Shown here: one piece after another, positions 40,199 to 62,630 of the stretch
Layout of the letters: each line of letters starts with the position of its first letter
Numbering within the stretch: the stretch's first letter is position 1
IMG/VR virus record: IMGVR_UViG_3300008219_000006
From: an uncultured virus (IMG/VR IMGVR_UViG_3300008219_000006)
Taxonomy: Duplodnaviria; Heunggongvirae; Uroviricota; Caudoviricetes
Length of the DNA: 64,000 bases
Strand: one strand, 5' to 3'
Program-made: the position numbers and the translations under genes
The notes under the pieces: generated by a model
Told to the model about the DNA's origin: nothing
What the model saw: only the letters and a program-made list of their open reading frames with translations
The model's database searches: none

Positions 40199-40210
40199 GA
40201 GAAATAGATT

Positions 40211-44947: not shown

Positions 44948-44961
44948 AAAAGGGGAGAACA

Positions 44962-45246: not shown

Positions 45247-45392
45247 TGAGAAGAAGGTTATTGCTAAAAGTTGCCTCGGTTATGTTATTGTTTCAGGGTT
45301 ATTGTGCAGTCTCAGCAGGTAATTCTGCTATGGGAACTTGCTTTATCATCTTATCTACTTATTTTTGGTTTCATAGAAACTGGATAAAATAA
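45246..45392 (+). CDS. 48-aa two-helix membrane protein
   Basis: MRRRLLLKVASVMLLFQGY...; TAATG coupling. Confidence 0.4.
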   Translation: MRRRLLLKVASVMLLFQGYCAVSAGNSAMGTCFIILSTYFWFHRNWIK

Positions 45393-45424
45393 TTATTAGT
45401 ATATTTATACTGCTTATAGGAGTA

Positions 45425-46517: not shown

Positions 46518-49500
46518 ATGATTGTGCCAGAAGAAATTCAGCAACCTAAACACTTTAAGTCATTATTTGATTTACAATACGAAGAAGCTATGGATAGACA
46601 CGAAAACTTTTTCGGTCCATCTGATGCTCTTGATGCTCATAAAAACTTACGATGGTTAGAAGTTAAAGCTGGTAATATTTCTGAAGATGATTATATGGAA
46701 GAGTTTGGTTATTTCGATAGAAAAAAATCTATAGATGAAAGATCTAATCATTGGTATAATATGATTGATAATTATATTATTGAAGATCCTTTTACTATTG
46801 AACAACTAGAACAAGATCCAAGCCAAGCACAATATCTGGCAGTAATGAAAAAGAATCATGACCGTGGAGAATACAGTCTTGGTATTATGAGTCGAGAAGA
46901 AAGACTATCACTACCACAGCAAGGTGTTGGTATGTATCAAAGAAGTGGCTGGTATGAATCCCACCTAAAAGAACTTATGACAACCCATAGACAAAAGAAA
47001 GATGGTTCTTTTCTTCTTCAGTCAGATACTGGTCAAATATTAAATCCCGAAGAAATCGCTAAGTTTATTGATGAAGGAAGTATTGATCACACAAAAATTC
47101 TTCAGTGGAAAACACTTTCATTGGACGATCCTCTTTGGTGGGTAATTGGACAAGAGGGTACAGCTGCGGTACTAGATAAGAAAGCACATTCTGATTATTC
47201 TGGTAAAGATATGGTAATGGAACTTCAAGAGGTTGAACCATCTCTTTGGTCTGCATATATAGTAGCAGGAGGAACTGGACAAAGATTAGAACAAGCTAAG
47301 AATTCTTATGATTGGTGGTATAAGTTTAACTCTACATTGACTGATCATGCTATGGCATTATCTACTATGAAATATATGGTGGAAGACGAAAACTTTTTTG
47401 ATTGGATAATACCAGCTGGTATCTCTTTCTTTAAAGAATCTTTTATTAAAGATCCAGATATGACAGGAGATTTTACTGTTTGGGGTTCGATGACGGCAGC
47501 AGGGGCTGCAACAGGCGCAATAACTGGTCTAGGAGCAGGTACAATACCGGGCGCAATAGTAGGTGGTATTGGTGGGGGTATATATTGGTTAGGAAAAAGA
47601 GTTAAAAGAGTTCAAAGTGTTATGGACAGTATGATAAGTATGTCTCAGAAAGCAAAGAGACTCAATAGAAAACAACGCAGTCTTCTCTATTTGGAGACTG
47701 GGGTTAAGACAACAGAACAAATCTTAGATGTAATTATGCCAACACGGTGGGCTTCTTTTGTTGGAACGAAACTTGGTTATGTAGACAATCTAACCTTCTC
47801 GGAAAAAATGTCTGATGCTCTACACTTTAGAAAAGCGGCTTTTACAAGAAGGTTAAAGTTAGCTCCGTTTGATGCGCTTGAAGGATTTATTGAAGGAAGT
47901 ATTGTTCATATAGCAGATGCTAATGAAAGAGGAGCTAATTGGACTTTAGGTTCTATGATACAAGAGGGTGGTATAGAAGCGGTTGTTAGTATTGGATTGA
48001 ATCCGACTATGAGAGCAGCTATGCAGGGAGGCTCTGGTTTACTAGGAGCTGGAGCACAACTAACTAATAAATTTGTTTCAAAAAATAATGATCCTGTTAT
48101 TACAGATCTTATGAATAGAGCTTCAAGAATTGTATTTAGACCAAGAAGTTTGGAAGAACAAATGGAAGCTGTTGATAAGTACGATAAATTTATTGAGTTT
48201 GGTAGTAGATATAAAAATATATTTGGAGAATATTCTCATGCTGAAAGAATTGAAGCTGGAGAGGCCAAGTACTTGTTTCCTACAGATCCAAAGAGAGCTA
48301 ATAGAGAACGAAACTTTTTAGATTCTTTGTTTGATACGGTACAACTTTTGGCGCAAGCTCAGAATGTAGAAAACCAAACTTCATGGACCCTTAATAAGAT
48401 GGACGAAATCTTGTCGATGCTTGAAAAAAAAGTCAAGGATGAGAAGCGACCTAGTATGGGTATTAAGGAAGCAGCTGAATTATCTATAAAATCTTTAATT
48501 GGATCTATTGATGCGGTTGTTAAAGCAGATCCAGATTTTGATATTAATCTTGCGAACAACTTAAAAAATATGATAGCTAGTGAGTATAAAACATTTCTTC
48601 TTTTAGATATAGCTAGAAATCATGTAGATCCTATTACTGGCGAAAAGAAAGAACTAACTATAGAAGAAGTAATAGAAAAAATTGATCCTACTAAAGATGA
48701 GTTCGATGTCAATCTTTGGTTTAAGACTTTTACAGAAGCAGAAAGAGAATTATTAAACGATGAAATGGATCGAAGGGGACTAAAGCTAGAAGATATTACT
48801 GATGATCCAAAGCTAACCCAAGAGATAGTAGAAAAGGTTACTGAAGATTGGATGGGTAGAACAGAAGATACTCGAAGGTTAGAAGATGACGCTCAAAAAA
48901 AGAGAATAGAACACGCTTCGGCTCTTAGTGATTTCCTTGAACAACCTATAACTATTCAAGATATAAGAACTGGGGAAACTATTGTTGTAGGAGGAGATAG
49001 ATATACTGGTACTCCTCTAACTATAGATGAAGCTATTAAGAAGAAAAACGATACAGCAGACGAAGTAGAAAGTGAACCTGAGATAGATGAAGAGGAAGTT
49101 GAAATAACTGAATTAACTCCAAGAGAACAAAGGATTATAAGAAATTCACAAGAGAGGTTACAAAAAGGATTAGAAGCTTATAAAAAAGCAAAGACACCTA
49201 AAGAAAAGAAAAGTGCTTTAAAACAAATAGCTAATGCTGTTTGGAAAACTGAAGGAAGACTTAACAAAATAACAAAAGAACGAGCTGGAAAAGAAATAAT
49301 AGATTTGCAAAATGAAAGTCAAGGTATTTTAACTAAAGAAAATATTGAAATAGGACCAGATAAAGCTGGAGATCCTATGGATTTTAATAGAGTTGATACT
49401 GAAGTATCTGACATAAAAGGTGAAACAGCTGATACAAGTGAAAATTTTGTTATTTTACAAGTTAAACAACCAGTTATTAGACAAGGAAATGAAAGGTTAC

Positions 49501-52500
49501 AATATGCTAAAGTTGTATTAACACCAGCTGAAAAATTTACACCGGAACCTATAGATGCTCCTCAAACTATCGTACCTACTGAACCTCCTGCTGAACCTAA
49601 GAAGAAAACAAAGAGTCAAAGAAGAAAGTTACTTGAAAAAGCAAATGATGCAGAAGCCGTAGCTGAAGGATCTTTTGAAAAGATTAGCGAAGATCGAAAA
49701 GAAATGTTGATAGATGTTAATAATATTGATATTGAACTAGCTCAATTAAAAGCCCAACTTGATCAAATGAGCGATGAGTTTTATGAGACTGAAGAAGGTA
49801 AGAAAATAAAAGAAATAGCCGATAAACAAGCAAAGCTTAACGAAAAACGAAATGAATTACTTCGTGAAATGGGTTTTGAATCTAGAACTCATAGTGTAGA
49901 TGGTTCTAGTCTTAAGTCTGTTAAAGAAGCTATTATATCTTTTGCTAAAGAGGATATCGAATCCGAAAAGAATCGGCTTAAAGAGATTGAGAAAGATACA
50001 AATATTCTTGAAAATACCAAAAGAGTCTTGGCTAAAAAACTTGGAAAAGACGCTACAGATAATGATAAACAAGAGCTATTAAAACAAAAAAGATCAATCC
50101 TTCTCAAGTTCTTGACTAATAAAAGAAACAACGATACTGTTGCTGGAATAGCAAAAGCAGCAGAAATACCTGTAGAATTTATTAAGGCTTTAAAAAATAA
50201 CGAGGTTGTATCTCTAGAAGAGTTTGATAGAATTTTATCTAATACCAAAATACAGAGTTATTTGACTGGGATTATTAAAGACGTTAAAAAATATGGAACA
50301 CTAGAAGCTGATGTTGTAAAGAATAATATAGAGAAAGCAAACGAAAGAATAACAAATGCTGGAACATTAGCATCTAAATGGATGGAGAATGTTAAGAGTG
50401 GAAGAAAGAATTTACATGAATTAGGAAAAGCTCAAAGGGCTGCATCTAAGGTTCATAAATATCAAGAAATGACAGAACTAAGAGCAAAGATAGCTAATGT
50501 ATCGTTAGCAAAAGGAACCTCTGTTGCTAGACTTGCAGATATTCAGCCTGATTTTGATAACTTAGTAGAACTGGCTTATATAAAGCAAGTTATTTCGGAT
50601 ACAAAAGCAAGTAAGAGAGATCTAAAACAAAGGATGAAGGGTAAGCGTACTATTACCAAAGCAGATCTTAAGATTGTAATGTTAGGAAATTACCATACCC
50701 ATGAATATATAGATGGATTCTTTGTAACCTCTGAAGATTATTCAGGTCTTGATGAAGATTCCGAAATTGATATTGATAAAGCAAGAGATATAATTAGTAG
50801 CTTTGGTGAATGGCGAAAGAATACTTTAGGTAAGCATGTTGGTATTCAATTACAAAACGCTACTTTGGCAAATAGAAGACCAGAAGCGTTAAATAATTTA
50901 TCAGATGGGCTGAAAACAGCAGTTAATATTGAAGAGTTTGGTCCTAATGATAAGCCATTAATAAACATAACACCAGAACAAGCTAAGACAAATGCAAAAT
51001 CAAGAAGGGTAGAAGTTAAAGATACTGCTGAAAGTATAGGACAACTAGGTCTTGATCTGTTAAAAGCAACCAAATTACTATCTAATCTGAAGAGATTAAA
51101 TGGTAGGTATAGTAATATCGGTCTTGTTGTAGCTCAACTAAAGCAAGCTGGTTTGGAAAACCTTAATTTTGATCATCCTATTTTCCATACAGAACTTAGT
51201 CCGGTCATTCTAAAACATGCAGGAGATATAATGTATGATGCTAAGAATGAATTAGATCTTACAGAACTGTATCCTCTTGATATTACAATTGATGGTATTA
51301 AATCTGATGATTACTTGAATGTTATTGTAGATATTAATGAACTAGAGAATATTCTTACTGCTCTAGCTAGTCAAATAAATAACAAACTTCAGATTATGGT
51401 TAACGAGGGAATTAGGGGAGCCGATACACAGATCACTAATATGGATGAAGCTAGTCTTAATTTATATAAGCAATATGAACTTGTTACTAGGCTTCATGAA
51501 GGACTGTTAGAACACATCTCAACAATGACTAATCCCTTGAGAAGGGGATGGGATAGAGATCTTGATAGTCAATTCTTACAGCTTGGTGATACAACTTATG
51601 AAACAACTCCTCATGAATATCGTCAAACAGTTGAAAACTATTTTGCGAGAGGTCTTGGAGATATACAAAACAAAAGACTATGGGATGGATATAGAGATCT
51701 TTTTGAACAATATCTAATAACTAGAAAACCAGATCCCAAGAGTATAGACTTAGATATAAAAGAACTATATGAACAAATTTTAAGGGATGAAGTAACCTTT
51801 GATCATAATAGTCAAATAACTCTTATGTACAAACTTGTTCAAGAAGTTTTAGGTATTGAGGATATAACTCAACTAGGAGGACTTTCAGAAGGAAGTCGTT
51901 TGGCACTAGATTGGGTTTCGGCAGAAGAAGCTGGATTTGCTTTGGCTGATTTTATTTTCCGAAGAGAAGAAGTTTCCTTATATAGAAGAGTCGTTAAGAG
52001 AAAGAGTTCTTCAAAAACTGGCGAGGGTGAAATAACTAGTGAGCAGCAAATTACTGATAGCGAACAGGGAACAGAAACTGAATTACAAGCTAAATCAGTT
52101 AGAAGTGATATACCTTTGTCTGCTAGAAACCTAGCAAGAAATTGGGAAGAGTCTGTATATAGACATAGGATGAGAAAAAGTTTAGAGTATTTGACTACAG
52201 CAAGCGATGAGGAAGTTGAATTAGTTATTGCTAGTATTCGAGAAAGTGTTCCAAGTAAGGCAGAAGCTTATAAGAAGTATGCAGATGAAACAGGTAAGGA
52301 TGTTAAAACTCTAACTGCTGAAGAAAAAACTAAAGCAATTAAAACTTTTTATCTTCCTGAGAAAGAGAAGGTAGCCAAGATGGCTACAACCTATTCATTC
52401 CTACCTCAGATGACAAATAGATCTCCCGGTGAAACAATTACTAACTTTGAACGATGGGAATCTTTTGTGTTTGAGGTTATGATGGATTGGCCTGTATTGG

Positions 52501-55500
52501 GAATGAATCTTATACATGATGGTAGATATTATACAGATGGTACTGTTGTTGAGTTTCTAGGAAAAGACGAATCACATCAAAGGTATGCAGATGATAATGA
52601 TCTTGATGTTGAAACTCTTACTGAAGATCAAATTAAAGAAGCCGAAAGAGTTTATCCTCCTGAGATGTTGCACATGAAACCTTCTACTGCTGCTAGAGGA
52701 ACTAGAGCTCAGCGAAGTGAAGATAAAGTTCGTAAGGCAGCACATGCTGGTATGCCTATCGGTAAACTTACTTTAGCTGGATTCTTTACACAATGGGCTC
52801 ATGGAAGACTTAATATTAACTTTGAAGAGTTTGCTAAATCTGCCTTAACTCTTGGCAATGAAACAGTAAAAAGTTTGGGAATCAATAATCTATTTAATTT
52901 TACATCAAGTAAAAACTATGCCGATCTTAATGCTGCTGGTATTCATTCACACTTTAGCGTATTAATGATGACACCAAAAAACAGAGAGGCTGCTGAAGCT
53001 TTGTTGGATAAACTAGTAAACCAAAGAAACAAAGTTTTAGGAACTACTCCTGAAGATCAGTATCTTGAGGCTAGTGAGTTTGTATTAGAAACAGCTTTAC
53101 ATACATTAGAAATATCTGGATTGCATACAGATATTTTTCCGGGTATACAATCTTTAGAGAAGATTGCTGCTGAGTTTGATTTTGAAGGGGTTTTAAAAGA
53201 TATTAAAGCTGGTAGAAAAAAAACTGCAAGAGTCGAAAAATTCAGAAAACTTATAAAGCACCCTATTATGGTTAAACTTTATTGGGCTGGACAAGAAGGT
53301 ATTAAAAGTTCTTTTAGTGATGCAAAGGATGCGGGACTGCTTGAAGGATTTACTGAACAGGACTTAGATTGGTTTGCTCTCTTCTTAGCTCAAGGTGGTG
53401 CAGTTTTGCGACACAATCTACTTAACCATGCTCTTCAAAATAAAGACGGTAAGCCTACTAGCGATGTTCTTGGAGAATCTATGGGCGTTGATATGGGCGA
53501 TAGACAAGAGGCTCTCAGGATATTAAAAGACTTAGCCAATCAAGAAACAGATGTTGTTAAAAATTATATGGACCTGTATGGCAAACAAATTGAAGGCAGA
53601 GATACAAAAGCAAGAACTCTTGAAAAATCCTTAGAAGATTTTGTGAGTGCTAAAGCTTTATATCTTGCACAAGGAGATCTTGCTAGAGCAGAAGAACTTA
53701 AGCCTAAGATTAGAGCAGAACATAAAAAGAGAATTGAAAACCTACAAGAATATCTAAGAGAGAACGGACTAAAGGAAGAATCCTTAAATGATCCTGTAGT
53801 TATGAATCAACACAGAGGAGAAATTGAAAGAATAATGATGGGTTGGGAGGGAGATGCATGGAAAGAAATGCCAATGCTTCGTGCTATTAATGAAAAGAAT
53901 GCTCAACCTGTTACTCTAGCAATAGATGAAAAAACCAAAGCTGCTGGAAAACCAGCTGGTATTGATATGGATCATGTTGGAGAACATTGGTTAATGGGTA
54001 GCCTATTAGATAAGTTTACCCTGTTCATAGAATATGGAATTGATACCTCATCGGGTCGATACAATCCTATGGATCCAAGTCCTTTGACACCATATAACTC
54101 AACTCTTGGATCTTTCCGTAGTGATGAAAAACCATACTCTATCTGGAAAACAGAAAACAATAGATTTGCTAAGATGGCTACTGATGAAGAGGGTAATTTA
54201 GATCCTAAAAAGATGAGGGCTTATATAAATAGATTGATTGCTATTGACTTATCTATAAGAATGATACAAGACTATGATCCTCCAATTCCAAATTTTGAAC
54301 CATATACAGAAAAAGATTTCTGGGCAGATTGGCAAACAGAGTCAGATCATACAGTAGCTTCTAGAGAAAGAGAAATCAATTTTTGGGAAGATCCAGAAAA
54401 CAATGATTATGAAATATCTAAAGAAGAATTCAATAAGAATACATATGGTGGGACAAGAGATCATAGGTCTAGACCATTGTTTGCTAGGCGTAATATAGAT
54501 TATAAGAGTAATCAAGAAATGAGTACTAAAGATCCTGCTGGTATCGCGGCTTTACGTCCTAGAACAGGAAAGCCCGGAAACCTAATGCATGACAGAGGAT
54601 CTATGTTTCTTAGGAAAGAATCTTTAAATAGAAAGCTGAGAGAGAAAGAACAAAGATTAGAACATCTTCGTAATACAATAAATACTACTGAAATTGATAC
54701 TAATATTATGTCTGATATTATTAGTGGAGCACATCCTTTCCAATCTGATACATTACCTGTAGGACCAACACCAGATACTACAACCCTTTCTCATGTCTTT
54801 GGAGATACTATAGATGAACAAGTATACAGAGCTATACGAAACATTGAAAATAAGATTCGTCCTTGGGCTATGGAACGTGGTTACTATAAAGAAGTAAAAG
54901 ATAATAAATGGGGACGATTGTGGATTATGTGGGAGATGGATCGTCTTCATAAGAATACTATTAGAGAAACAAGACAAATCCTAAAAAGTTTTCGTGGAGC
55001 TGATGTTTGGGATCAGAACGATATAGAAATAGGAATGCGACAGATAAGACTTTCTTATTACGATAAGCTTTACAAACTTCGATCAGTTGTACATGAACTA
55101 AGAAGTAAAGGCTTTGATTCTAGAGAAGCTGATATTATGGAAAATCAACTTAGTGCTCATATCAATATGGATGATATGACCTATATCGAACTAGCAAGAA
55201 CTCTAGCAGATAGCGGATTTGCTCAGGATTCAAGAGTCTTTACTCCAGCTCCTCATCATTTAATGGCTATTGATCCAGAAACAGCAGCAGATCCTGTAGA
55301 ATTTACAAGAACTGTTGAAGGTCCCATTGCTATGCATCACTTAGAGCAAGCATTAGCTGAGCATGAAATAGTATTTATAAGTTATGTAAACGAAGAATTA
55401 AATATATTGTCTAAAGAAGATACTGAATTAGGGAAATATCTAAGGGATAAAAGAGATACTTTTGAAAGCGGTCGCCATCTTAATTGGAAAGACCTTCAAA

Positions 55501-58500
55501 ATATGATGTGGTCTGAAAACGAAACTGTTAATCAATGGGCAATGGATATTCTAGATAAGGCTGAAAAGAAAGCTATTAATGCAGAGCATAAGAATTTTTA
55601 TATCTACTTAGATCCTGACAGTGAAACTAGATCTACGATGACTTATGATAGAAAAGAAGAAGGAAATGTAAAAAGACTTTGGGGTGGATGGAGTCCGTTG
55701 ATTTCACAAAAACCTATTGGTAGTGCAAGGTATCATCTGACTCCAGAAGGATTGCAACAACTATTTGTTAATATTCGGTCTACCTTATTCAAGAAATTAG
55801 AAGATAGACAAATTACTGGCATTAGTACTCTGCACTCTGAACCATCTTTGGCTCAACGATTAGACTCTGGTTATCAAGCAGATACTAGAAGATCTCACGA
55901 AGCGTTGTTAAAGGCGTTTGAACTTATGGGTGATACTGAAGTCGGAGACTATACTCTTGTTGATAAATCAAGAAGAAGTTCTTTTGATGATAGAGAACCT
56001 CAAAGAGTTCTTGATATAGATAAACTTTCAGGTATGAAGATAGTAACTGGTAATAGATTTGATCATGCTTGGGATAGAGCTTACTACTCTCAGTGGGAAG
56101 CAACTAAAGAAGCTGCTAGAAGGCAAGGTAAAACAAGGCTACTAGATTATTTAATAAATCAAGAAGAGCTAAATCCTGAACTTGTAAAAATACATGCTAT
56201 ATCATTACATGCTGAAAACTTTATGGGACTTGGTACTGAAGAAGCAAGAATATATGCAGCTGCTATAACAAACAAAGATGTTGATTGGGTTGATAAAAAT
56301 ACTTTGTTACTAGATAATCTACAACAAGAGATTAACAAGTGGGAATTTTCAGGTCCTTTAGAAAAAGCTATTATGGAATTAGAACGGCATCATAGAAATA
56401 CATCTACAGAAAATACTTTAGATAGAACTAATGTAGATAATTTAAGAAAGGTATTAAAAGTATTTGGTATGGAAGATTCTGCTATAGATGCTATGCCTGA
56501 ATTCAAGGATTATAATAAATGGATGAATAACGGTTTATCGGTAGTTATTGATATTGAAACTGATATTGCTGAGGATGGTGTTCCAACAAAAATATATCGA
56601 GTAGTTAAACATTATTCTAGGAAAAATACAAAAGCTGGTTTTATTTCTGAAGTTGTAACAGGAGAAGATTTAAACAGTATTCTCGTAGAAATAGAAAGAG
56701 CTCAGCAAGCTGGATATAAGGTTGTTACTTATAACGGCAATACTTTTGACTTTAAGCATCTAGTTAGGTTAGGAGCAGATCCTAAGATAGCTGCAAGAAT
56801 TGCTACTAGAAGCATTGATTTGTATAGTCTCTTAAGAAGAATGAAAGCTAATCAAGATAGTCGTAAGGGAAGCTTAGGACGAATATCTGAACTACTTAAT
56901 CTTGGTAAGAAAAAAGAAATTGGTGGATATATGGTTCACCTTTTGGAATTAAGGAAAAGTGGAAAGACTTTAGATAAAACAGATTTACCTATAGCCTATA
57001 GAAATGATGAAATAGCTATTGATGAATTAAATAAAATTAATGATATGGATTCATCTGATCCATCTTTAGAAACTCGTATTGTAAACTATACTCTTGAAGA
57101 CGGTGTATTAACAAATAAACTATTTGCGGAGTTGTTAAAACGTCAAGGAGAAACTAATATTAGTCTTGGAGAAATTGGAACTCTTGATTTAGTTACAGAA
57201 CTGTATCCAAACTGGGCATTAGATATAGATGGAACTAGAGCTGTAACTAATAAAGATGCCTTTAAATGGATAGATGATGTAGTTATTCCTAAGCTTATTG
57301 GTAAGGAAGAAGATACTTCTGACTTTGGATTGCATAACAAAGGGTTTGTGACTGAAACTGGGAGTAGATTTAGAGATCGAGCAGAGAGAGAAGCAAAAGA
57401 ATTCTTTAGAAGAGGAAGGCTTTGGGCTGATAAGAGAGAATTCAATGAACAACGAGATAAACTAAACGGTAAGAACTACGATGCAATCGAGGTCTTGTCG
57501 TATCAAGACTTTATTAATGAGGTTTTAGGAGAATCAGTTACACTAACAGAAAATGATGGAAGACTAATGGCAGCTAAATATGCTATGGAAGCTATTATGG
57601 CTGAGCGTAAACCTACAGAACTTAATCTATTAGATTTAACTAGAGGTATAGATGAAGATGTAGATTTATCCGATCTTGGGGATTCTAAAAAATTCGATCT
57701 TGTCTTTATACACAATGATGCTGCTCTTAAAATGAATAAAACATTATCTAGAGCAGAGAGAGATGGTACTCTTAAACCAGAAGTAGTAGTTGGGTTGAGA
57801 ATAATGTTTGCTCATTTAGCTAGAATGAATCCAGACTTCTTTAGAACAGTCGAGTTTGAGATAGATCCTAGTGATATATTCGATACTCAAGGAAGAAGGC
57901 AACGGGGTAGATTTGGTATTAAAGATAATAAATTCCATATGATTATAGATCCAAGAGAATCTACCGATGTTCAGATTGTTGAAATTGCTCTTCATGAAAT
58001 CATAGGACATATGGGCGTTGAGAAGTTTGTTAGAAAGAATGAAGCTGATTGGGTAAGTATGGTTGAATGGCTAAGAACTGCTTCTGGTAGAAACGTAGTT
58101 GCAGACTTTGTAAAATCAAATCCAAAATATAGTCACTTAACTGAAGCAGAAAAGAATAAGAAAGTTGAATATTACCAAACAAATCCTGAAGAATGGGCTG
58201 CTCTTTATATTTCTTATCAGCTTATGAAGGATGTTACTCATGATTCTATGATTGATATCAATAATCCTAAAATTAATAGATCTCTAAGAGGCATGATTAA
58301 TAAGATTGTGTCTTCAATAAGAAACCATCTTCAAACAATTACCGATGCTTTGTTTAGGTTTAGAAAGACATATCCTCAAGCATATGAGATGATGGAACGA
58401 ATTACAGAAAATGCTTATGGTTATCAAACAAAAGGTAATATAAGATATAGAAGAGAAGCACAAACTCCAAATCGAGTAGCAAACGATTATGAATCTACCC

Positions 58501-61500
58501 ATGAAGGATCTGATACAGAAAACATGTATTCTTTTCTTAATCCCTTAGCCGGAGAACAGGGAGATAATGCTCTTACTCTTCATGCATTTGATAAAAATAG
58601 TGGGGTTAAGATGGGAACTCCTTTGAAGAAGGGAGAGCTTTCTGGACTAGCTAAGACAGAAGAAATTGAAACATGGGTAAGAGAAGAAGAAAACGCTAGA
58701 AGAACTCGTATTGATTTAAGAAATGAATTAAATAATCTTACTATAGGTTCTGCTGAACACATCGCTAAACAAATAGAGTTTGATAATGCTGCTAAAAAAG
58801 AAGGAGAAATATCTCAAAGAATAAGTGATAATGAATATAATAATCTTTTTGGACAATCAAGAAGAGAAGTAGCAGATAATAAAGTTGAATTAGCTAGAAG
58901 GTTTGGTGACGAACAAGTAGTTGATTATATGTTGGGTGATGAAGCTAATGGGTTTGTTATGAAACAACAACAATACAACGCAGGTAAGCTAAGAGAGATA
59001 ATGACTTCTAGTAAACAAGAAGATATTACATTAGCTAAAACATTCCTAGCTTTGTCTTTTGAAAATATGATTAAAAAGCGTGGAGACTATGTAAGAGAAA
59101 ACGCAGAACGATGGTTATCTATGTTTCCTCATATATACATGAGATTAAACAGATTGGCAACAGGTGGTCTTGCTGGTCTTAATACTACTCAATCAGATCA
59201 AACATATTTAAATACCATTATTCCTATTGTTATCTTAAGTAATCTAGTTGTACCCGGACTTGAAAATGTTTCTGGTAATGTACAAAATACAAAGGGATGG
59301 GATAGTTTGGATGATAGGCGAAACGAGTTGTTTGATATAGAAGAAGCAGCTAGAGAGTATGATAAAGAATTTGTTAAGAATACTGTTGATGGTAAGACTA
59401 TGACAGAAGTACAATTTGATCAAATAAAAGAACTATCTCTTTCTTTAATCAATGATCCATCTAGTGTCTCTTCCAGCCATCCTTTTTATGATTTAGCTAG
59501 AGAATATTCTAAGACATCTGAACAACTCATACAAAGAGCTACTGATTATCTTGTTAATGCCCGTGTATTACAAGAAAGACATTTAGAAAAACCAGAGCAT
59601 AGACTTATGCTATCTTTAAACAAAACAAAAATAGGAGATCTTATATCTAAGAATCCAGATGTTATTACTCAAGCTAAGGATGAAATAAGAAGACAAGTTT
59701 TAGAAAATCTGTCTTTAACAGATACTTCATCTATTGTAGATCCTGTTTCTCTATATGCTTCTGGTATTCTACCTGACATAACATCAAGTGAAGTTAATCT
59801 TACTTTTATTAGAGGTTGGGATGATATGCCTTTGGTTATCAGAAATAAGATTGATCAAGAAATTAAAAACGATCCTTCATTAATGACAATAACTGAATGG
59901 GATAGTGACATGCTTATGCTTGATACTAATCCTAGCTCTGAAGCTAAAGCTAGATTAAAGATATATAAAATTCGGAAACAAAAGGTTGAAGCATTATATA
60001 AGAAAGCAGATTACGGTGCTACTACTTTATCAGATATTATAGGATCTGGTACTTCTGCTGGAGAAGCAGCTTCTATCATATCACAATATAATTCTTCATT
60101 AGAAGCACACAATACTTCTTTAGTAGATAAGTTTAGAGCACATTCTGGAAGTTATCTGGCAACTATGATTCTTAGTGGAAATGGTTTAGCGAGAGATTCT
60201 GGTACTCATATGTTATTTACAAGTAAGGAAGCCAATAGTGTTGTTGGATTTAAATCATATCTTCTTATGAATAGAATTGGTTCTACTGCTTTTATTCCCC
60301 ATTCAATTGTTGGAATACCTAAGTCTTATGAATTAATGACAAACGATAAAACAAAGATGTTGTTTAATACCGATGTAGGTAGTATATCACGGGCTCTTAC
60401 AAGAGGACCGGGATGGAATGCTGGAACAATTCTAGTAATGAAGGAATTTACTAATTCAAATATAAACTTTTCTGACTTTCTGGATATGTTTAGAAATGTT
60501 ATTGATAACTCGCCTGATTTAGATAGTATTAATGTTATAGATCAGTCTGTTCTAAACCTTAGTACAAAAATGAGAACTGATCTTAAAAGCAAGATATTAG
60601 ATGATATTGAAACTCTAAGAAGAAAGATGCAGATTACTGGTGGTATTGCACTTAGACAATATAATAGATGGAATAGTGCAATTGATACTGCAAATGATTT
60701 TACTTCTACTTTGTTAGGACCAAACCTAACAGTAGCTACGCTAACTGTTGAAGGTATGATGAATACTACCTCTCTTATGTTTGGCGGTCCTCAAGGATTA
60801 AAGAACTTTGCAACTGCTGTGATTGATTCTATAGCATTTGCTTCTTCTGGTAGTACTAAAAAAGGACGTAGCCAAATGCGTCAGCTTGCTAGAGAAATGG
60901 GATGGTATGCAAAACATAAGAGACATAGTATGTTTGAAGTACACCGTTCTGTTCTTTATGGCGATGAACTCCATGATGATGAAGTAGGTGGGCTTAAAAG
61001 ATATCTTAGAAGAACTAAAACTTATTCTAATAGTGTAAACGGTGGTATTAATATTGCTCTTAGAAGTCAATCTACTATGTCCTATAGAAAATGGTTTGCA
61101 GAAATTCTTGGAAATGATAAGCTTAAAGAATTAATTATTAAAGTAAATGATGCTAAAGAAAAAGGTGAGTTTAAAACTAGAGCAGATATTAAGAGGGTAG
61201 TAAAAGAAGTACTAGGTTCTTCTCATGGAAGAACTGAAGCTGTTTATCAAATGGCTAAAGCTGGTCTTTTAGATCTTGATATTCTACCTGATATTAAAAC
61301 TCTTATTGATGAATCTGATGTTGTATATGGTGTACATACTTATGGTGGTAGAATGAGAAACTACATAAGCGAAAAGACAGATACAGCAGAAAGAACAAGA
61401 CTTAATGAGGTATTGCGGAAAATGAAGAATTGGGAAAATATCGTAGTACATATGAATATTGTTGATCCTAATGCTATGGATATTGATACAACGGATGTTC

Positions 61501-62438
61501 CTTTGTTTAGATGGTTAAGGCATTATAAGTCTTATCCAAATATCTTTGCTGCTCAAAGAGTTTTTAGAGATTCGTCTAAATATAGTTTACCAGCCTTTGT
61601 AGCTCGTATGTTCCGTTTCATGCTTCAGGAAATGATATATGCTATTATCACTATGCTAGCCGCCGGAATGTCAGCAGCTGTCTTAAAAGAAAGGTTTGAG
61701 AAAAACCCAATTAGTGAGATGACTGCACTCTTGCAAAGAAGTCCTATGTTAGGATACTGGGGAGAATTCATTGCTTCTACAGTAAGAACTATGCTATCAG
61801 CAGCCTCTGGAAAACTAGACGCTACTCCTTTGGCTAGAACTTTACTACCTGTAGGTGGTTCTCTTATGAGATCTCAATCTCAATCTTTGGTCAATGCTAT
61901 TAGAGGTAATACTGATGGAGGAGACTGGGCAAACTATGCTCGTATGTTAACTCTAGCTCCTGTCCCAGTCCTTGGACAAATTGCAGGTAATCCATTTACT
62001 AGGATAGCTGTAAGTAGAACAATGGGTAAAGAGAAGTCAGCCAATAGTATGAGACAGAAGATGGGGGACAGACTTGGGAAACCTAATGGTCGAGACAGCT
62101 TAAGAAATGGATTAGGTACGACCGTGGAACCCTCGGACTCAAGTCTATCCTCAAGAAATGTCTTCTTTACACCTGAGGAAAAGAACCTAAGTAATATCAT
62201 GAAAGAACTATATCCAGATGCTATGAATTCACCATATGTTACAGATGTTGGTGTTTCTATAGATCCTGATGATATTAAAACTCCAGAAGCATCTCAAGTT
62301 ATTCCTCAGTTACCTCCAAGAGATACTCCAGAGCCTAAGAGCAGTCGTGTCGATATTGCTAGTAAGAAACCTGACCCGATCCAAGCTATTTCAGAGTCTT
62401 CAAAACCTATGGAGATACCTCCAGAATTAATTGAATAA
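46518..62438 (+). CDS. 5306-aa giant polyvalent virion/ejection protein (gp16 position) with RNAP-like, DEDDy exonuclease and metallopeptidase domains
   Basis: Uninterrupted ORF with AAGGAG RBS; Gly-rich hydrophobic segment; motifs DLNAAG, RKLIKHPIMVKLY, DIET/YNGNTFD/YTLED, HEIIGH. Confidence 0.8.
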   Translation: MIVPEEIQQPKHFKSLFDLQYEEAMDRHENFFGPSDALDAHKNLRWLEVKAGNISEDDYMEEFGYFDRKKSIDERSNHWYNMIDNYIIEDPFTIEQLEQDPSQAQYLAVMKKNHDRGEYSLGIMSREERLSLPQQGVGMYQRSGWYESHLKELMTTHRQKKDGSFLLQSDTGQILNPEEIAKFIDEGSIDHTKILQWKTLSLDDPLWWVIGQEGTAAVLDKKAHSDYSGKDMVMELQEVEPSLWSAYIVAGGTGQRLEQAKNSYDWWYKFNSTLTDHAMALSTMKYMVEDENFFDWIIPAGISFFKESFIKDPDMTGDFTVWGSMTAAGAATGAITGLGAGTIPGAIVGGIGGGIYWLGKRVKRVQSVMDSMISMSQKAKRLNRKQRSLLYLETGVKTTEQILDVIMPTRWASFVGTKLGYVDNLTFSEKMSDALHFRKAAFTRRLKLAPFDALEGFIEGSIVHIADANERGANWTLGSMIQEGGIEAVVSIGLNPTMRAAMQGGSGLLGAGAQLTNKFVSKNNDPVITDLMNRASRIVFRPRSLEEQMEAVDKYDKFIEFGSRYKNIFGEYSHAERIEAGEAKYLFPTDPKRANRERNFLDSLFDTVQLLAQAQNVENQTSWTLNKMDEILSMLEKKVKDEKRPSMGIKEAAELSIKSLIGSIDAVVKADPDFDINLANNLKNMIASEYKTFLLLDIARNHVDPITGEKKELTIEEVIEKIDPTKDEFDVNLWFKTFTEAERELLNDEMDRRGLKLEDITDDPKLTQEIVEKVTEDWMGRTEDTRRLEDDAQKKRIEHASALSDFLEQPITIQDIRTGETIVVGGDRYTGTPLTIDEAIKKKNDTADEVESEPEIDEEEVEITELTPREQRIIRNSQERLQKGLEAYKKAKTPKEKKSALKQIANAVWKTEGRLNKITKERAGKEIIDLQNESQGILTKENIEIGPDKAGDPMDFNRVDTEVSDIKGETADTSENFVILQVKQPVIRQGNERLQYAKVVLTPAEKFTPEPIDAPQTIVPTEPPAEPKKKTKSQRRKLLEKANDAEAVAEGSFEKISEDRKEMLIDVNNIDIELAQLKAQLDQMSDEFYETEEGKKIKEIADKQAKLNEKRNELLREMGFESRTHSVDGSSLKSVKEAIISFAKEDIESEKNRLKEIEKDTNILENTKRVLAKKLGKDATDNDKQELLKQKRSILLKFLTNKRNNDTVAGIAKAAEIPVEFIKALKNNEVVSLEEFDRILSNTKIQSYLTGIIKDVKKYGTLEADVVKNNIEKANERITNAGTLASKWMENVKSGRKNLHELGKAQRAASKVHKYQEMTELRAKIANVSLAKGTSVARLADIQPDFDNLVELAYIKQVISDTKASKRDLKQRMKGKRTITKADLKIVMLGNYHTHEYIDGFFVTSEDYSGLDEDSEIDIDKARDIISSFGEWRKNTLGKHVGIQLQNATLANRRPEALNNLSDGLKTAVNIEEFGPNDKPLINITPEQAKTNAKSRRVEVKDTAESIGQLGLDLLKATKLLSNLKRLNGRYSNIGLVVAQLKQAGLENLNFDHPIFHTELSPVILKHAGDIMYDAKNELDLTELYPLDITIDGIKSDDYLNVIVDINELENILTALASQINNKLQIMVNEGIRGADTQITNMDEASLNLYKQYELVTRLHEGLLEHISTMTNPLRRGWDRDLDSQFLQLGDTTYETTPHEYRQTVENYFARGLGDIQNKRLWDGYRDLFEQYLITRKPDPKSIDLDIKELYEQILRDEVTFDHNSQITLMYKLVQEVLGIEDITQLGGLSEGSRLALDWVSAEEAGFALADFIFRREEVSLYRRVVKRKSSSKTGEGEITSEQQITDSEQGTETELQAKSVRSDIPLSARNLARNWEESVYRHRMRKSLEYLTTASDEEVELVIASIRESVPSKAEAYKKYADETGKDVKTLTAEEKTKAIKTFYLPEKEKVAKMATTYSFLPQMTNRSPGETITNFERWESFVFEVMMDWPVLGMNLIHDGRYYTDGTVVEFLGKDESHQRYADDNDLDVETLTEDQIKEAERVYPPEMLHMKPSTAARGTRAQRSEDKVRKAAHAGMPIGKLTLAGFFTQWAHGRLNINFEEFAKSALTLGNETVKSLGINNLFNFTSSKNYADLNAAGIHSHFSVLMMTPKNREAAEALLDKLVNQRNKVLGTTPEDQYLEASEFVLETALHTLEISGLHTDIFPGIQSLEKIAAEFDFEGVLKDIKAGRKKTARVEKFRKLIKHPIMVKLYWAGQEGIKSSFSDAKDAGLLEGFTEQDLDWFALFLAQGGAVLRHNLLNHALQNKDGKPTSDVLGESMGVDMGDRQEALRILKDLANQETDVVKNYMDLYGKQIEGRDTKARTLEKSLEDFVSAKALYLAQGDLARAEELKPKIRAEHKKRIENLQEYLRENGLKEESLNDPVVMNQHRGEIERIMMGWEGDAWKEMPMLRAINEKNAQPVTLAIDEKTKAAGKPAGIDMDHVGEHWLMGSLLDKFTLFIEYGIDTSSGRYNPMDPSPLTPYNSTLGSFRSDEKPYSIWKTENNRFAKMATDEEGNLDPKKMRAYINRLIAIDLSIRMIQDYDPPIPNFEPYTEKDFWADWQTESDHTVASREREINFWEDPENNDYEISKEEFNKNTYGGTRDHRSRPLFARRNIDYKSNQEMSTKDPAGIAALRPRTGKPGNLMHDRGSMFLRKESLNRKLREKEQRLEHLRNTINTTEIDTNIMSDIISGAHPFQSDTLPVGPTPDTTTLSHVFGDTIDEQVYRAIRNIENKIRPWAMERGYYKEVKDNKWGRLWIMWEMDRLHKNTIRETRQILKSFRGADVWDQNDIEIGMRQIRLSYYDKLYKLRSVVHELRSKGFDSREADIMENQLSAHINMDDMTYIELARTLADSGFAQDSRVFTPAPHHLMAIDPETAADPVEFTRTVEGPIAMHHLEQALAEHEIVFISYVNEELNILSKEDTELGKYLRDKRDTFESGRHLNWKDLQNMMWSENETVNQWAMDILDKAEKKAINAEHKNFYIYLDPDSETRSTMTYDRKEEGNVKRLWGGWSPLISQKPIGSARYHLTPEGLQQLFVNIRSTLFKKLEDRQITGISTLHSEPSLAQRLDSGYQADTRRSHEALLKAFELMGDTEVGDYTLVDKSRRSSFDDREPQRVLDIDKLSGMKIVTGNRFDHAWDRAYYSQWEATKEAARRQGKTRLLDYLINQEELNPELVKIHAISLHAENFMGLGTEEARIYAAAITNKDVDWVDKNTLLLDNLQQEINKWEFSGPLEKAIMELERHHRNTSTENTLDRTNVDNLRKVLKVFGMEDSAIDAMPEFKDYNKWMNNGLSVVIDIETDIAEDGVPTKIYRVVKHYSRKNTKAGFISEVVTGEDLNSILVEIERAQQAGYKVVTYNGNTFDFKHLVRLGADPKIAARIATRSIDLYSLLRRMKANQDSRKGSLGRISELLNLGKKKEIGGYMVHLLELRKSGKTLDKTDLPIAYRNDEIAIDELNKINDMDSSDPSLETRIVNYTLEDGVLTNKLFAELLKRQGETNISLGEIGTLDLVTELYPNWALDIDGTRAVTNKDAFKWIDDVVIPKLIGKEEDTSDFGLHNKGFVTETGSRFRDRAEREAKEFFRRGRLWADKREFNEQRDKLNGKNYDAIEVLSYQDFINEVLGESVTLTENDGRLMAAKYAMEAIMAERKPTELNLLDLTRGIDEDVDLSDLGDSKKFDLVFIHNDAALKMNKTLSRAERDGTLKPEVVVGLRIMFAHLARMNPDFFRTVEFEIDPSDIFDTQGRRQRGRFGIKDNKFHMIIDPRESTDVQIVEIALHEIIGHMGVEKFVRKNEADWVSMVEWLRTASGRNVVADFVKSNPKYSHLTEAEKNKKVEYYQTNPEEWAALYISYQLMKDVTHDSMIDINNPKINRSLRGMINKIVSSIRNHLQTITDALFRFRKTYPQAYEMMERITENAYGYQTKGNIRYRREAQTPNRVANDYESTHEGSDTENMYSFLNPLAGEQGDNALTLHAFDKNSGVKMGTPLKKGELSGLAKTEEIETWVREEENARRTRIDLRNELNNLTIGSAEHIAKQIEFDNAAKKEGEISQRISDNEYNNLFGQSRREVADNKVELARRFGDEQVVDYMLGDEANGFVMKQQQYNAGKLREIMTSSKQEDITLAKTFLALSFENMIKKRGDYVRENAERWLSMFPHIYMRLNRLATGGLAGLNTTQSDQTYLNTIIPIVILSNLVVPGLENVSGNVQNTKGWDSLDDRRNELFDIEEAAREYDKEFVKNTVDGKTMTEVQFDQIKELSLSLINDPSSVSSSHPFYDLAREYSKTSEQLIQRATDYLVNARVLQERHLEKPEHRLMLSLNKTKIGDLISKNPDVITQAKDEIRRQVLENLSLTDTSSIVDPVSLYASGILPDITSSEVNLTFIRGWDDMPLVIRNKIDQEIKNDPSLMTITEWDSDMLMLDTNPSSEAKARLKIYKIRKQKVEALYKKADYGATTLSDIIGSGTSAGEAASIISQYNSSLEAHNTSLVDKFRAHSGSYLATMILSGNGLARDSGTHMLFTSKEANSVVGFKSYLLMNRIGSTAFIPHSIVGIPKSYELMTNDKTKMLFNTDVGSISRALTRGPGWNAGTILVMKEFTNSNINFSDFLDMFRNVIDNSPDLDSINVIDQSVLNLSTKMRTDLKSKILDDIETLRRKMQITGGIALRQYNRWNSAIDTANDFTSTLLGPNLTVATLTVEGMMNTTSLMFGGPQGLKNFATAVIDSIAFASSGSTKKGRSQMRQLAREMGWYAKHKRHSMFEVHRSVLYGDELHDDEVGGLKRYLRRTKTYSNSVNGGINIALRSQSTMSYRKWFAEILGNDKLKELIIKVNDAKEKGEFKTRADIKRVVKEVLGSSHGRTEAVYQMAKAGLLDLDILPDIKTLIDESDVVYGVHTYGGRMRNYISEKTDTAERTRLNEVLRKMKNWENIVVHMNIVDPNAMDIDTTDVPLFRWLRHYKSYPNIFAAQRVFRDSSKYSLPAFVARMFRFMLQEMIYAIITMLAAGMSAAVLKERFEKNPISEMTALLQRSPMLGYWGEFIASTVRTMLSAASGKLDATPLARTLLPVGGSLMRSQSQSLVNAIRGNTDGGDWANYARMLTLAPVPVLGQIAGNPFTRIAVSRTMGKEKSANSMRQKMGDRLGKPNGRDSLRNGLGTTVEPSDSSLSSRNVFFTPEEKNLSNIMKELYPDAMNSPYVTDVGVSIDPDDIKTPEASQVIPQLPPRDTPEPKSSRVDIASKKPDPIQAISESSKPMEIPPELIE

Positions 62439-62452: not shown

Positions 62453-62630
62453 GGGGGGACCTAGGGACCTAGGTTTATATTATATATATAATATATAACT
62501 AGGGTAAACTAAGGACCTAGGAAATCGACTAGGGGTCACGAATACACAGCTAGGGAGAGATTATAAGAGGACTTTCTTTTCCCCCCGTACCCCCCTTAAT
62601 TCTTTCGCTATAAAAAGCGATGGGGTACCG
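62453..62630. repeat. Candidate genome end / terminal-repeat region
   Basis: ggacctagg three times plus further ctagg units, 20-bp AT palindrome 62476-62495, ccccccgtacccccc at 62581. Confidence 0.55.

What the first reader, a model, noticed from the sequence alone, without database searches (positions are those of the whole stretch)
46518..62438. 5306-aa polyvalent ejection protein: a T7-like phage that may inject an RNA polymerase, nuclease and protease
Seen: one ORF occupies a quarter of the window in the gp16 position. It has a Gly-rich membrane-type segment (WGSMTAAGAATGAITGLGAGTIPGAIVGGIGGGIYWLG, ~47480-47590), long coiled coils, then RNAP-like, DEDDy exonuclease and metallopeptidase motifs in series. 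Established: T7 gp16 is ~1300 aa; N4-like phages inject a ~3500-aa virion RNAP; T7-like phages are not classically known to do so. Inference: a two-polymerase transcription system in an Autographiviridae-type backbone, with enzymes delivered through the ejectosome. This is the best candidate for an undescribed system here.
Basis: partly seen in the sequence, partly recalled or inferred. Interest (0 to 1): 0.92.

Follow-up and report, generated by a model that had tools for sequence, protein, structure and literature searches.

The report
Giant ejected RNA-polymerase-like phage protein
A 68-kb relative of phage T7 encodes a 5306-residue, cysteine-free protein built like the injected RNA polymerase of phage N4, so this phage may bring its own polymerase into the cell, something so far tied to N4-like phages only.

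Summary
The ORF is real: 46518-62438 (+), 5306 aa. It sits in a circularly assembled ~67.8-kb podovirus with T7-type replication, portal, scaffold, capsid, tail tube A, nozzle and terminase genes. It is almost an orphan. Large sequence searches found two other lineages only (about 4990 aa and 4715 aa, 21-24% identical). No Pfam, PHROG or PDB sequence match explains it, except a DEDDy exonuclease domain (PF13482) that only this lineage has. Profile-profile comparison gives weak but reproducible similarity to T7-like and N4 virion RNA polymerases. The match falls on catalytic motifs A and B, which are invariant in all three lineages. An HExx(x)H region aligns with the zincin-like domain that follows the polymerase in N4 gp50. 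Protein-language-model neighbours of two lineages are RNA_pol/N4 vRNAP clusters. The giant and three upstream proteins have no cysteine, like N4 gp50 and T7 gp16; other genes average 1.55%. AlphaFold failed, motif C is unresolved, and virion location is untested. Best reading: an N4-gp50-type polyvalent ejection protein in a T7-type backbone. Each of the three phages also has at least one standalone T7-like polymerase. This is a new variant of a known kind.

The parts
46518..62438 (+). Giant ORF, 5306 aa, 0 cysteines
47202..48230 (+). Conserved N-terminal block (residues ~229-571), including the Gly-zipper/hydrophobic segment 322-359 (nt 47481-47594)
   Evidence: BLASTP to the relative's N part, 303-571 vs 305-523, E 4e-12; to the third lineage, 229-538, E 1.5e-8; weak glycine-zipper hits
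48315..51767 (+). K/E-rich, poorly conserved region (residues ~600-1750), probably long helices
   Evidence: composition; no BLASTP similarity between lineages here
51822..55139 (+). Single-subunit-RNAP-like module (residues 1769-2874)
   Evidence: conserved block with the relative, E 5e-33; hhalign to T7-like and N4 vRNAP profiles; ESM Atlas neighbours
52917..52967 (+). Motif A-like YADLNAAGIHSHFSVLM (D2136 aligned with T7 D537 and N4 D559)
53244..53291 (+). Motif B-like RKLIKHPIMVKLYWAG (R2243, K2247, Y2255 aligned with T7 R627/K631/Y639 and N4 R666/K670/Y678)
56541..57107 (+). DEDDy 3'-5' exonuclease-type domain (residues ~3342-3530); an insert absent from the two other lineages
   Evidence: PF13482 E 2.9e-6; alignment gap in the relative; no Pfam hit in the relatives
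57735..58397 (+). Zincin-like (MPTase-type) region with HEIIGH at 3826 and conserved NPEEW at 3889
   Evidence: hhalign to N4 gp50 aa 2130-2448, score 26.3, P 0.007, 0 of 100 shuffles; passages in PMC5512222
58398..62435 (+). Conserved C-terminal region with hydrophobic segments at residues 4230-4252 and 5038-5057
   Evidence: BLASTP 3736-5305 vs the relative, E 4e-44; hydropathy
39461..46477 (+). Upstream module after the terminase: 245-aa, 1578-aa and 106-aa proteins (all 0 Cys) and a 350-aa LysM + lysozyme protein (1 Cys); candidate co-ejected proteins
62531..62594 (+). Conserved two-tier G/C-rich hairpin element downstream of the giant's stop, present in all three lineages
3895..6384 (+). 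Standalone T7-like RNA polymerase 1 (829 aa by the listed TTG start)
   Evidence: PF00940 E 9e-84; motifs intact

Best explanation
The ORF encodes a giant internal-virion (ejection) protein of a ~68-kb T7-supergroup podovirus, laid out like N4 gp50. From the N terminus it has: a region with a glycine-zipper/hydrophobic segment and long charged helices; a very diverged T7/N4-type single-subunit RNA polymerase module; a lineage-specific DEDDy exonuclease insert; a zincin-like HExxxH domain; and a ~1350-aa conserved C-terminal domain. Inferred mechanism: it is packed in the capsid with the cysteine-free proteins encoded just upstream and with the LysM-lysozyme. It is ejected through the enlarged nozzle at infection. 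Its polymerase module then transcribes the first genes to enter the cell, among them a standalone T7-like RNAP gene that lies shortly downstream of the giant gene in all three lineages. The exonuclease is extra cargo. Shown here: the ORF, its conservation, the exonuclease family match, the motif-level RNAP and zincin similarity, and the lack of cysteine. Inferred: packaging, ejection, catalytic activity and order of transcription.
For: Backbone genes are T7-type: primase-helicase, DNAP, portal PF12236, scaffold PF05396, tube A PF17212, nozzle PF25675 (E 4e-58) and T7-type TerL. The giant follows TerL and a set of unassignable proteins plus a LysM-lysozyme. RNAP module: giant+relative profile vs a 10-sequence N4-type vRNAP profile scores 34.5-35.6 (P 0.006-0.008), aligned on motif B. 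Against a 10-sequence T7-like RNAP profile it scores 35.0 (P 0.006), with a Viterbi path from T7 D537 (motif A) to beyond motif B. In both cases 0 of 26 column shuffles reach these scores (max 23.3 and 24.7). With the third lineage added the scores are 45.7 (P 4e-4) vs vRNAP and 36.2 vs T7, and 0 of 24 shuffles reach them. Controls: four other 1160-1190-aa pieces of the giant score 15-21.5; a family-A DNA polymerase profile scores 17.5-19.9; the vRNAP profile vs the T7 profile scores 71.6. D2136, R2243, K2247 and Y2255 are invariant in the three lineages. ESM Atlas: for the giant's residues 1950-2760 the listed neighbours are PF00940 and N4 vRNAP clusters at 0.87-0.88. For the relative's homologous 1100 aa, 23 of 30 hits are PF00940 sets at 0.91 with 173 shared features. 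Zincin-like region: score 26.3, P 0.007, 0 of 100 shuffles, with HEIIGH on N4 HELVH 2228. The order RNAP then zincin then long C-domain matches N4 gp50 as described in PMC5512222 and PMC13434306. Cysteine: 0 of 5306 residues in the giant and 0 in the 245-, 1578- and 106-aa upstream proteins, against 192 of 12,382 (1.55%) in the 22 other ORFs counted (which include those three and the lysozyme protein). N4 gp50 has 0 of 3500 and T7 gp16 has 0 of 1318.
Against: No Pfam, PHROG or PDB sequence match to any polymerase or peptidase, with limits up to E 1-10 for Pfam, 0.1 for PHROGs and 1-10 for PDB. BLASTP to N4 gp50 finds nothing. hhalign probabilities are low (5-34%), and I chose the segment knowing the motif. 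The alignments cover only motif A to the fingers. The GR of the T/DxxGR-like site is not conserved (SQ in the other lineages). Motif C is not identified: two invariant Asp candidates, D2577 and D2692. AlphaFold gave pLDDT 32 and 41, so there is no fold evidence. ESM recognition values (1791, 1781) are below those typical of known families, and scores of 0.88 count as leads only. No similarity to T7 gp16 or to the N- and C-terminal domains of N4 gp50 outside the zincin region (P 0.04-0.5). A 12-of-12 sigma-70 promoter at window 586-613 leaves room for host-RNAP early transcription. No virion proteomics exist.
Confidence: 0.6

Rival explanations
1. It is an ejected IVP-D-type giant protein, but the polymerase-like region is degenerate or structural. 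Early transcription is done by the host RNA polymerase, as in T7, and the two standalone T7-like RNAPs do the rest.
For: A perfect sigma-70 consensus promoter with extended -10 lies at window 586-613 upstream of early-region ORFs. No motif C could be assigned and the GR of T/DxxGR is not conserved. All family-level searches are blank.
Against: The motif A Asp and the motif B Arg, Lys and Tyr are invariant in three lineages that are only 21-37% identical, and motif B is among the best-conserved blocks of the alignment. Sigma-70-like sites are not enriched in that region: 11 found, 9.6 expected.
Confidence: 0.25
2. It is not a virion component. It is a giant intracellular multi-enzyme protein (polymerase, nuclease, peptidase) made during infection, for example as a scaffold for transcription or replication, or as an anti-defence factor.
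For: No direct evidence of packaging. No detectable similarity to T7 gp16. The gene module lies after the terminase rather than between the nozzle and fibre genes as in T7.
Against: Zero cysteines in 5306 residues, as in N4 gp50 and T7 gp16, while the cytoplasmic enzymes of the same genome carry 1.1-3.1%. It neighbours a LysM-lysozyme and other cysteine-free proteins. The N4 gp50-like domain order.
Confidence: 0.08
3. The RNAP and zincin similarities are chance matches. The protein is a fast-evolving structural giant of unknown fold that merely picked up an exonuclease domain.
For: P-values of 4e-4 to 8e-3 are modest. hhalign probabilities are 34% or less. AlphaFold and the fold search gave nothing usable.
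Against: Two largely independent family profiles, three lineages and two language-model queries all point to the same family and the same catalytic residues. Adding a lineage raised the score. Negative-control segments and a DNA polymerase profile stay at background.
Confidence: 0.05

Closest known systems
Phage N4 gp50 virion RNA polymerase (Schitoviridae), a 'polyvalent protein'
   Same: Both are giant single polypeptides with no cysteine. Both have a central T7-type single-subunit RNAP module with aligned motifs A and B. In both the module is followed by a zincin-like HExxH domain and a long helical C-terminal domain (passages in PMC5512222 and PMC13434306). Both genes lie next to genes for smaller ejection-type proteins. 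The genome also encodes T7-like RNAP(s) for later transcription.
   Different: There is no BLASTP, Pfam (at E <= 1) or PHROG match to gp50 or to any vRNAP-annotated family. The protein is 1800 aa longer. It has an extra DEDDy exonuclease. Its zincin motif is HExxxH. The phage has a T7-type nozzle, tube A, portal and primase-helicase, whereas PMC4819975 reports no tubular tail B homologue in N4-like phages (passage). The standalone RNAPs are full-length single genes rather than the two adjacent genes annotated RNAP1 and RNAP2 in N4.
[quoted passage not shown]
   Same: Both are large, cysteine-free, apparently helical proteins encoded after two other candidate internal proteins, with a cell-wall hydrolase function nearby. 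[quoted passage not shown]
   Different: No sequence similarity was detected to a single T7 gp16 sequence (hhalign P 0.33-0.49) or to any PHROG. The lysozyme is a separate gene. The module lies after the terminase. The protein is four times the size of gp16.
T7-like single-subunit RNA polymerases (PF00940)
   Same: Motif A (D..G..HF.A/V) and motif B (Rx3Kx7Y with M at +8) are collinear with T7 536-712. The language-model neighbours are PF00940 clusters.
   Different: It is below every Pfam reporting threshold. The B-to-C region is much longer. It is embedded in a 5306-aa protein.
Polyvalent proteins of phages and conjugative elements (Iyer et al. 2017, PMC5512222)
   Same: Several enzymatic domains sit in one polypeptide presumed to enter the host with the DNA. 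A zincin-like peptidase is the recurring partner. HEXXXH variants are described in that paper (passage).
   Different: That paper states that N4-like virion RNAPs occur only in N4-like phages or prophages (passage). 'Exonuclease' occurs once in its main text, and I did not see that passage, so I cannot say whether a DEDD exonuclease partner is listed there.

Membership tests
N4 gp50-type virion RNA polymerase | Sequence membership in the vRNAP Pfam families carried by N4-like proteins (PF21769, PF21894, PF21624, PF21867) | tested here: not met
   These accessions annotate all 120 listed N4-like hits. None matched the giant at E <= 1, or the two relatives at E <= 10 and E <= 0.01 respectively.
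N4 gp50-type virion RNA polymerase | Central single-subunit RNAP module with motifs T/DxxGR, A, B and C | tested here: inconclusive
   A and B are aligned and invariant. T/DxxGR is not conserved. C is unassigned. The AlphaFold model is unusable.
N4 gp50-type virion RNA polymerase | Zincin-like HExxH domain directly C-terminal of the polymerase module | tested here: met
   hhalign to N4 aa 2130-2448: score 26.3, P 0.007, 0 of 100 shuffles, HExx(x)H aligned on HELVH. In the giant a ~230-aa exonuclease insert lies in between. The support is weak in absolute terms.
N4 gp50-type virion RNA polymerase | Packaged in the virion and ejected into the host | not testable with these tools
   Only indirect evidence: 0 Cys, as in N4 gp50 and T7 gp16, and the gene neighbourhood.
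T7 gp16 / IVP-D | Detectable homology to T7 gp16 or an IVP-D profile | tested here: inconclusive
   hhalign of the N- and C-terminal two-lineage profiles vs a single T7 gp16 sequence: P 0.33-0.49. No PHROG hit. The profiles were shallow and no IVP-D family alignment was built.
T7 gp16 / IVP-D | Encoded in an internal-virion-protein operon with smaller partners | tested here: inconclusive
   245-aa and 1578-aa cysteine-free proteins lie upstream, but they match no family, and the module follows the terminase.
T7-like single-subunit RNAP (PF00940) | Pfam gathering threshold | tested here: not met
   No PF00940 hit at E <= 1 or E <= 10. The same model scores 282 bits on the phage's standalone RNAP.
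DEDD 3'-5' exonuclease, RNase H-like superfamily (PF13482) | Pfam gathering threshold | tested here: met
   27.8 bits vs cut-off 22, E 2.9e-6, residues 3344-3473.
DEDD 3'-5' exonuclease, RNase H-like superfamily (PF13482) | Acidic DEDD residues plus Tyr (DEDDy) | tested here: inconclusive
   Read from the sequence: D3345, E3347 (VVIDIETD), D3411 (NTFDF), Y3524 and D3528 (YTLEDG). The motif names and assignment are recalled and were not aligned to a solved exonuclease. The model has low confidence here.
Zincin-like metallopeptidase (MPTase of polyvalent proteins) | HExxH helix, a downstream Glu ligand, and a three-stranded sheet before the helix | tested here: inconclusive
   The giant has HExxxH and both relatives have HELAH. 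NPEE is conserved 60 residues downstream in the giant and the relative. The low-confidence model shows three strands and then the HEIIGH helix. In the fold search zincin-type chains (lethal factor Z 5.5, YbeY Z 5.5, SprT-type Z 4.7) sit within the noise.

The most novel reading that the evidence does not exclude
A T7-supergroup phage lineage runs a cascade of three single-subunit-type RNA polymerases and needs no host RNA polymerase. An ejected 5306-aa polymerase transcribes the leading end of the genome, possibly from the conserved G/C-rich hairpin element just past its own gene. That region encodes standalone RNAP-2, which hands over to RNAP-1. The same ejected protein also delivers an exonuclease into the cell. 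This would imply that embedding an RNAP in the ejection protein is ancestral to, or was exchanged between, the T7-like and N4-like podoviruses.
Probability: 0.2. Interest if true: 0.85.

Novelty: new variant of a known kind. Interest (0 to 1): 0.72.

Why it matters
Virion-delivered single-subunit RNA polymerases are treated as the hallmark of N4-like phages; PMC5512222 states they occur only there (passage read). If confirmed, this protein shows the same solution in phages that build T7-type tails and replication machinery. It would link the two groups through the internal-virion-protein D lineage, as proposed on other grounds in PMC4819975. It would also be the largest such protein, with an added nuclease. 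That makes it a test case for how a ~600-kDa (estimated from its length) cysteine-free chain passes through a tail channel. It is also a source of very diverged single-subunit RNAPs, possibly with a new promoter type.

Tried and rejected
phmmer of both halves and of the exonuclease piece against PDB sequences gave nothing relevant, as did a three-sequence profile against PDB.

tblastn of both halves against 50,697 GenBank phage records gave no match.

The word-indexed protein search returned only the protein itself at 'near' lengths and nothing for the exonuclease region at 'shorter' lengths. The full HMMER scan of 1.84 billion representatives with residues 1550-2749 returned one fragment, P0002.

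Record G001, the nearest record held, is a 27-kb fragment without a match to residues 3301-4300.

AlphaFold2 on residues 1761-2940 (3-row alignment) gave mean pLDDT 32.1. On residues 3300-3990 (2-row alignment) it gave 40.8. Neither model is usable.

The VIA-align wide search with the second model gave a best Z of 6.8, on helical bundles. Zincin-type chains were among the rows but within noise, so this is neither support nor rejection.

hhalign of the N- and C-terminal profiles against the N4 gp50 N-domain, C-domain and T7 gp16 gave P 0.04-0.49 outside the zincin region.

A motif C search restricted to the C-terminal third of the module against T7 713-883 gave score 12, P 0.7. 'SDTLP' was dropped as a motif C candidate because the third lineage lacks the Asp. 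The 'IHDGR' site was dropped as a firm T/DxxGR equivalent because the other lineages read IHDSQ.

Rfam found nothing in 62300-64000.

I considered a schitovirus identity for the whole phage and rejected it, because nozzle, tube A and T7-type portal families match strongly.

The StenR_269 paper (PMC10747016, passages) proposes a vRNAP from size, helicity and lack of cysteine only. It was not used as support.
Full report
OBSERVATION.
The ORF is exactly as reported: 46518..62438 on the + strand, 5306 aa, no internal stop. The Gly-rich segment starts at residue 322, nt 47481. The gene is not an assembly artefact. An IMG/VR contig is identical over the 5261 nt it shares with the window, and a metagenome contig encodes 659 residues of the protein at 100% identity. 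The cluster holds six member sequences, with a longest contig of 67,988 bp. Two other lineages carry uninterrupted giant ORFs in the same place. The IMG/VR contig runs from inside the giant gene across the window's end and into the window's start. This gives a unit genome of 67,841 bp.

GENOME CONTEXT.
All sizeable genes lie on the + strand. Pfam and PHROGs identify the following:
- DUF932
- a T7-like RNA polymerase (3895-6384, PF00940 E 9e-84)
- a metallophosphoesterase, a gp2.5-type SSB and RusA
- a T7-type primase-helicase, a family-A DNA polymerase, a dNMP kinase, a 5'-3' exonuclease and a ribonucleotide reductase
- a T7-type portal (PF12236), scaffold (PF05396) and capsid
- a 1363-aa tail tube A and a 2080-aa nozzle (PF25675, E 4e-58)
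- a fibre with an Mtd_N domain
- a T7-type large terminase

After the terminase come a 245-aa and a 1578-aa protein of no family, a 106-aa protein, a 350-aa LysM plus lysozyme protein, and then the giant.

The nearest cultured phages by terminase are 37-46-kb marine and soil T7-like phages at 35-40% identity. So this is a deep, enlarged branch of the T7 supergroup and not a schitovirus. PMC4819975 (passages read) reports that N4-like phages have no identifiable tubular tail B.

HOW ISOLATED THE PROTEIN IS.
Several searches found no relative:
- Pfam at E <= 1 on four overlapping pieces gave one family above its cut-off, PF13482.
- PHROGs gave only a glycine-zipper-type hit.
- PDB sequences gave nothing.
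- 50,697 phage records gave no tblastn match.
- The 5.8-billion-protein index returned only the protein itself.
- A full HMMER pass over 1.84 billion representatives with residues 1550-2749 returned one 771-aa fragment.

Pattern scans of IMG/VR then found two related phages:
- Lineage 2 is a 66.7-kb contig rated 99% complete. Its giant is cut by the contig ends into a 1732-aa part and a 3257-aa part.
- Lineage 3 is a 51-kb contig with a complete 4715-aa ORF.

The window's giant is 21-24% identical to both, in four blocks: about 229-571, 1769-2874, about 3736-3998, and on to the C terminus. Lineages 2 and 3 are 36.6% identical to each other over 3270 aa.

RNA-POLYMERASE-LIKE MODULE (residues ~1770-2870).
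I built three profiles:
- 10 N4-type vRNAP polymerase domains
- 10 T7-like RNAPs
- a small family-A DNA polymerase profile

Results for the giant+lineage-2 profile of residues 1761-2940:

| Query profile | Template | Score | P | Aligned on | Shuffles reaching it |
|---|---|---|---|---|---|
| giant + lineage 2 | vRNAP | 34.5-35.6 | 0.006-0.008 | R2243/K2247/Y2255 on N4 R666/K670/Y678 | 0 of 26 (max 24.7) |
| giant + lineage 2 | T7-like RNAP | 35.0 | 0.006 | giant 2135-2349 on T7 536-712 (motif A D537 through motif B) | 0 of 26 (max 23.3) |
| three lineages | vRNAP | 45.7 | 4e-4 | 228 columns | 0 of 24 |
| three lineages | T7-like RNAP | 36.2 | 0.005 | motif A to B | 0 of 24 |

Controls:
- Four other 1160-1190-aa pieces of the giant scored 15-21.5.
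- The DNA polymerase profile scored 17.5-19.9.
- The known remote pair, vRNAP profile vs T7 profile, scored 71.6.

Invariant in all three lineages are the motif A Asp with ..G..HF.., and motif B R...K.PIM..LY.AG.

The ESM Atlas gave an independent result. For giant residues 1950-2760 the listed neighbours are PF00940 and N4 vRNAP-domain clusters at 0.87-0.88. For the homologous 1100 aa of lineage 2, 23 of 30 hits are PF00940 sets at 0.91 with 173 shared features. The tool warns that recognition values this low make such scores weak evidence.

Points against the RNAP reading:
- No family-level hit anywhere.
- The GR of the T/DxxGR-like site is SQ in the other lineages.
- Motif C is not assigned; D2577 and D2692 are both invariant.
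- AlphaFold2 with three rows gave pLDDT 32.

I put the homology of this module to single-subunit RNAPs at about 0.8. I put its activity at about 0.5.

EXONUCLEASE.
PF13482 matches residues 3344-3473 above the gathering score. The sequence shows the DEDDy residues (motif names recalled). The alignment with lineage 2 has a ~230-residue gap here. Neither relative has the Pfam hit. So the domain is a lineage-specific insert between the polymerase-like and zincin-like parts.

ZINCIN-LIKE DOMAIN.
The giant has HEIIGH (HExxxH); both relatives have HELAH. A 260-residue two-lineage profile against N4 gp50 aa 2130-2448 scores 26.3, P 0.007, with 0 of 100 shuffles reaching it (max 19.0). HEIIGH is aligned on N4 HELVH at 2228 and NPEEW on N4 ..NEF... 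In N4, PMC5512222 calls this region a zincin-like MPTase that is always fused to N4-type RNAPs, and it also describes HEXXXH variants (passages). PMC13434306 calls it subdomain C1 (passage). The second AlphaFold model is poor (mean 40.8; 50-74 over this region). It shows three strands followed by the motif helix. The fold search was uninformative.

ENDS OF THE PROTEIN.
Residues ~229-571, with the Gly-zipper segment, are conserved in all lineages. Residues 600-1750 are charged and unconserved. The C-terminal 1350 aa are conserved and hold two hydrophobic stretches. None of these regions shows similarity to T7 gp16 or to the N4 gp50 terminal domains.

CYSTEINE.
| Protein(s) | Cys / residues |
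|---|---|
| Giant | 0 / 5306 |
| 245-, 1578-, 106-aa upstream proteins | 0 in each |
| Lysozyme protein (350 aa) | 1 |
| The 22 other ORFs counted (these include the four rows above) | 192 / 12,382 (1.55%) |
| Lineage 2 giant | 2 / 4989 |
| Lineage 3 giant | 2 / 4715 |
| N4 gp50 | 0 / 3500 |
| T7 gp16 | 0 / 1318 |

 At 1.55% about 82 cysteines would be expected in the giant. This is the best indirect sign that the giant and its upstream neighbours belong with the proteins that leave the capsid through the tail.

TRANSCRIPTION CONTEXT.
A second T7-like RNAP (639 aa, PF00940 E 1.8e-10, phrog_414 E 2.7e-26) lies 1.6 kb past the giant's stop, just outside the window (L001:5320-7239). Lineage 2 also has two standalone RNAPs. 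Lineage 3 has one 3.4 kb past its giant, within the 24 kb examined.

Directly after the giant's stop lies a CCTAGG-rich palindrome cluster around an AT core. Lineage 2 has a similar cluster. After that comes a ~65-nt two-tier G/C hairpin conserved in all three lineages. Four of its 19 predicted pairs keep pairing through changes on both sides. Its role is open; it could be a terminator, a promoter or some other signal.

MECHANISM AND COMPARISON.
The most economical reading is an N4-gp50-type polyvalent ejection protein in a T7-type virion. It would be ejected with smaller partners and a lysozyme. Its polymerase module would start transcription on the entering DNA. The standalone polymerases would take over. 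The exonuclease would be accessory cargo.

The idea that IVP-D-type proteins host cytoplasmic enzymes, including the N4 vRNAP, is published (PMC4819975). So is the RNAP plus zincin pairing (PMC5512222). Neither the passages I read nor five full-text searches turned up such a protein in a phage with a T7-type nozzle, or one with a DEDD exonuclease. Supplements were not consulted.

VERDICT.
This is a new variant of a known kind. Interest 0.72.

Noticed in passing
L001:5320-7239 (about 1.6 kb past the giant's stop, just beyond window end): A second standalone T7-like RNA polymerase gene (639 aa; PF00940 E 1.8e-10). A counterpart lies downstream of the giant gene in both other lineages. In this phage its motif B region aligns poorly with the T7 family, while DxRGR, the motif A Asp and HDS are present.
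   Followed up: partly
window 62531-62594; L004 ~10257-10322; L035 ~14968-15040: A conserved ~65-nt two-tier G/C-rich hairpin in the non-coding DNA after the giant gene of all three lineages. There are 19 predicted pairs, and 4 keep pairing through changes on both sides. There is no Rfam match. It could be a terminator, a promoter for a phage polymerase, or another signal.
   Followed up: partly
window 62452-62545: A cluster of GGACCTAGG / CTAGGG repeats flanks a 36-nt AT-rich palindrome immediately after the giant's stop codon. Lineage 2 has the same layout with CTTAGG/CCTAGG repeats (L004 9775-9890). This may be a genome end or an origin.
   Followed up: partly
window 3890, 7687, 14969, 62434 (+ strand): The 18-nt motif AATARTTGGGTAAWGGAG occurs four times exactly, each at a gene boundary: before RNAP-1, after the phosphoesterase gene, before the reductase gene, and at the giant's stop. 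With up to 3 mismatches it gives 5 matches against 0.43 expected. It is a candidate phage promoter or processing site.
   Followed up: partly
window 586-613 (+): A 12-of-12 sigma-70 consensus promoter (TTGACA, 16 nt, TATAAT, with TG) lies upstream of the ORFs starting at 1022. It overlaps a 107-aa minus-strand ORF.
   Followed up: no
window 23022-27113 and 27067-33309: The tail tube A (1363 aa) and nozzle (2080 aa) are several times larger than I recall for their T7 counterparts. The nozzle protein carries 92 cysteines (4.4%), the opposite of the cysteine-free giant.
   Followed up: no
window 36008-36098: Three perfect tandem copies of a 30-nt unit (AGTAGTAGTCCTTCGCTTCCTCCTTTTACT) lie inside the 273-aa ORF 35324-36145.
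   Followed up: no
window 39461-46477 versus L006 8887-14807: The proteins between the terminase and the giant (245, 1578, 106 and 350 aa) have no tblastn match at E 1e-3 in lineage 2. That lineage has a 206-aa and a 1761-aa protein there and no separate lysozyme gene, although TerL is 64% and DNAP 60% identical. This module evolves very fast.
   Followed up: partly
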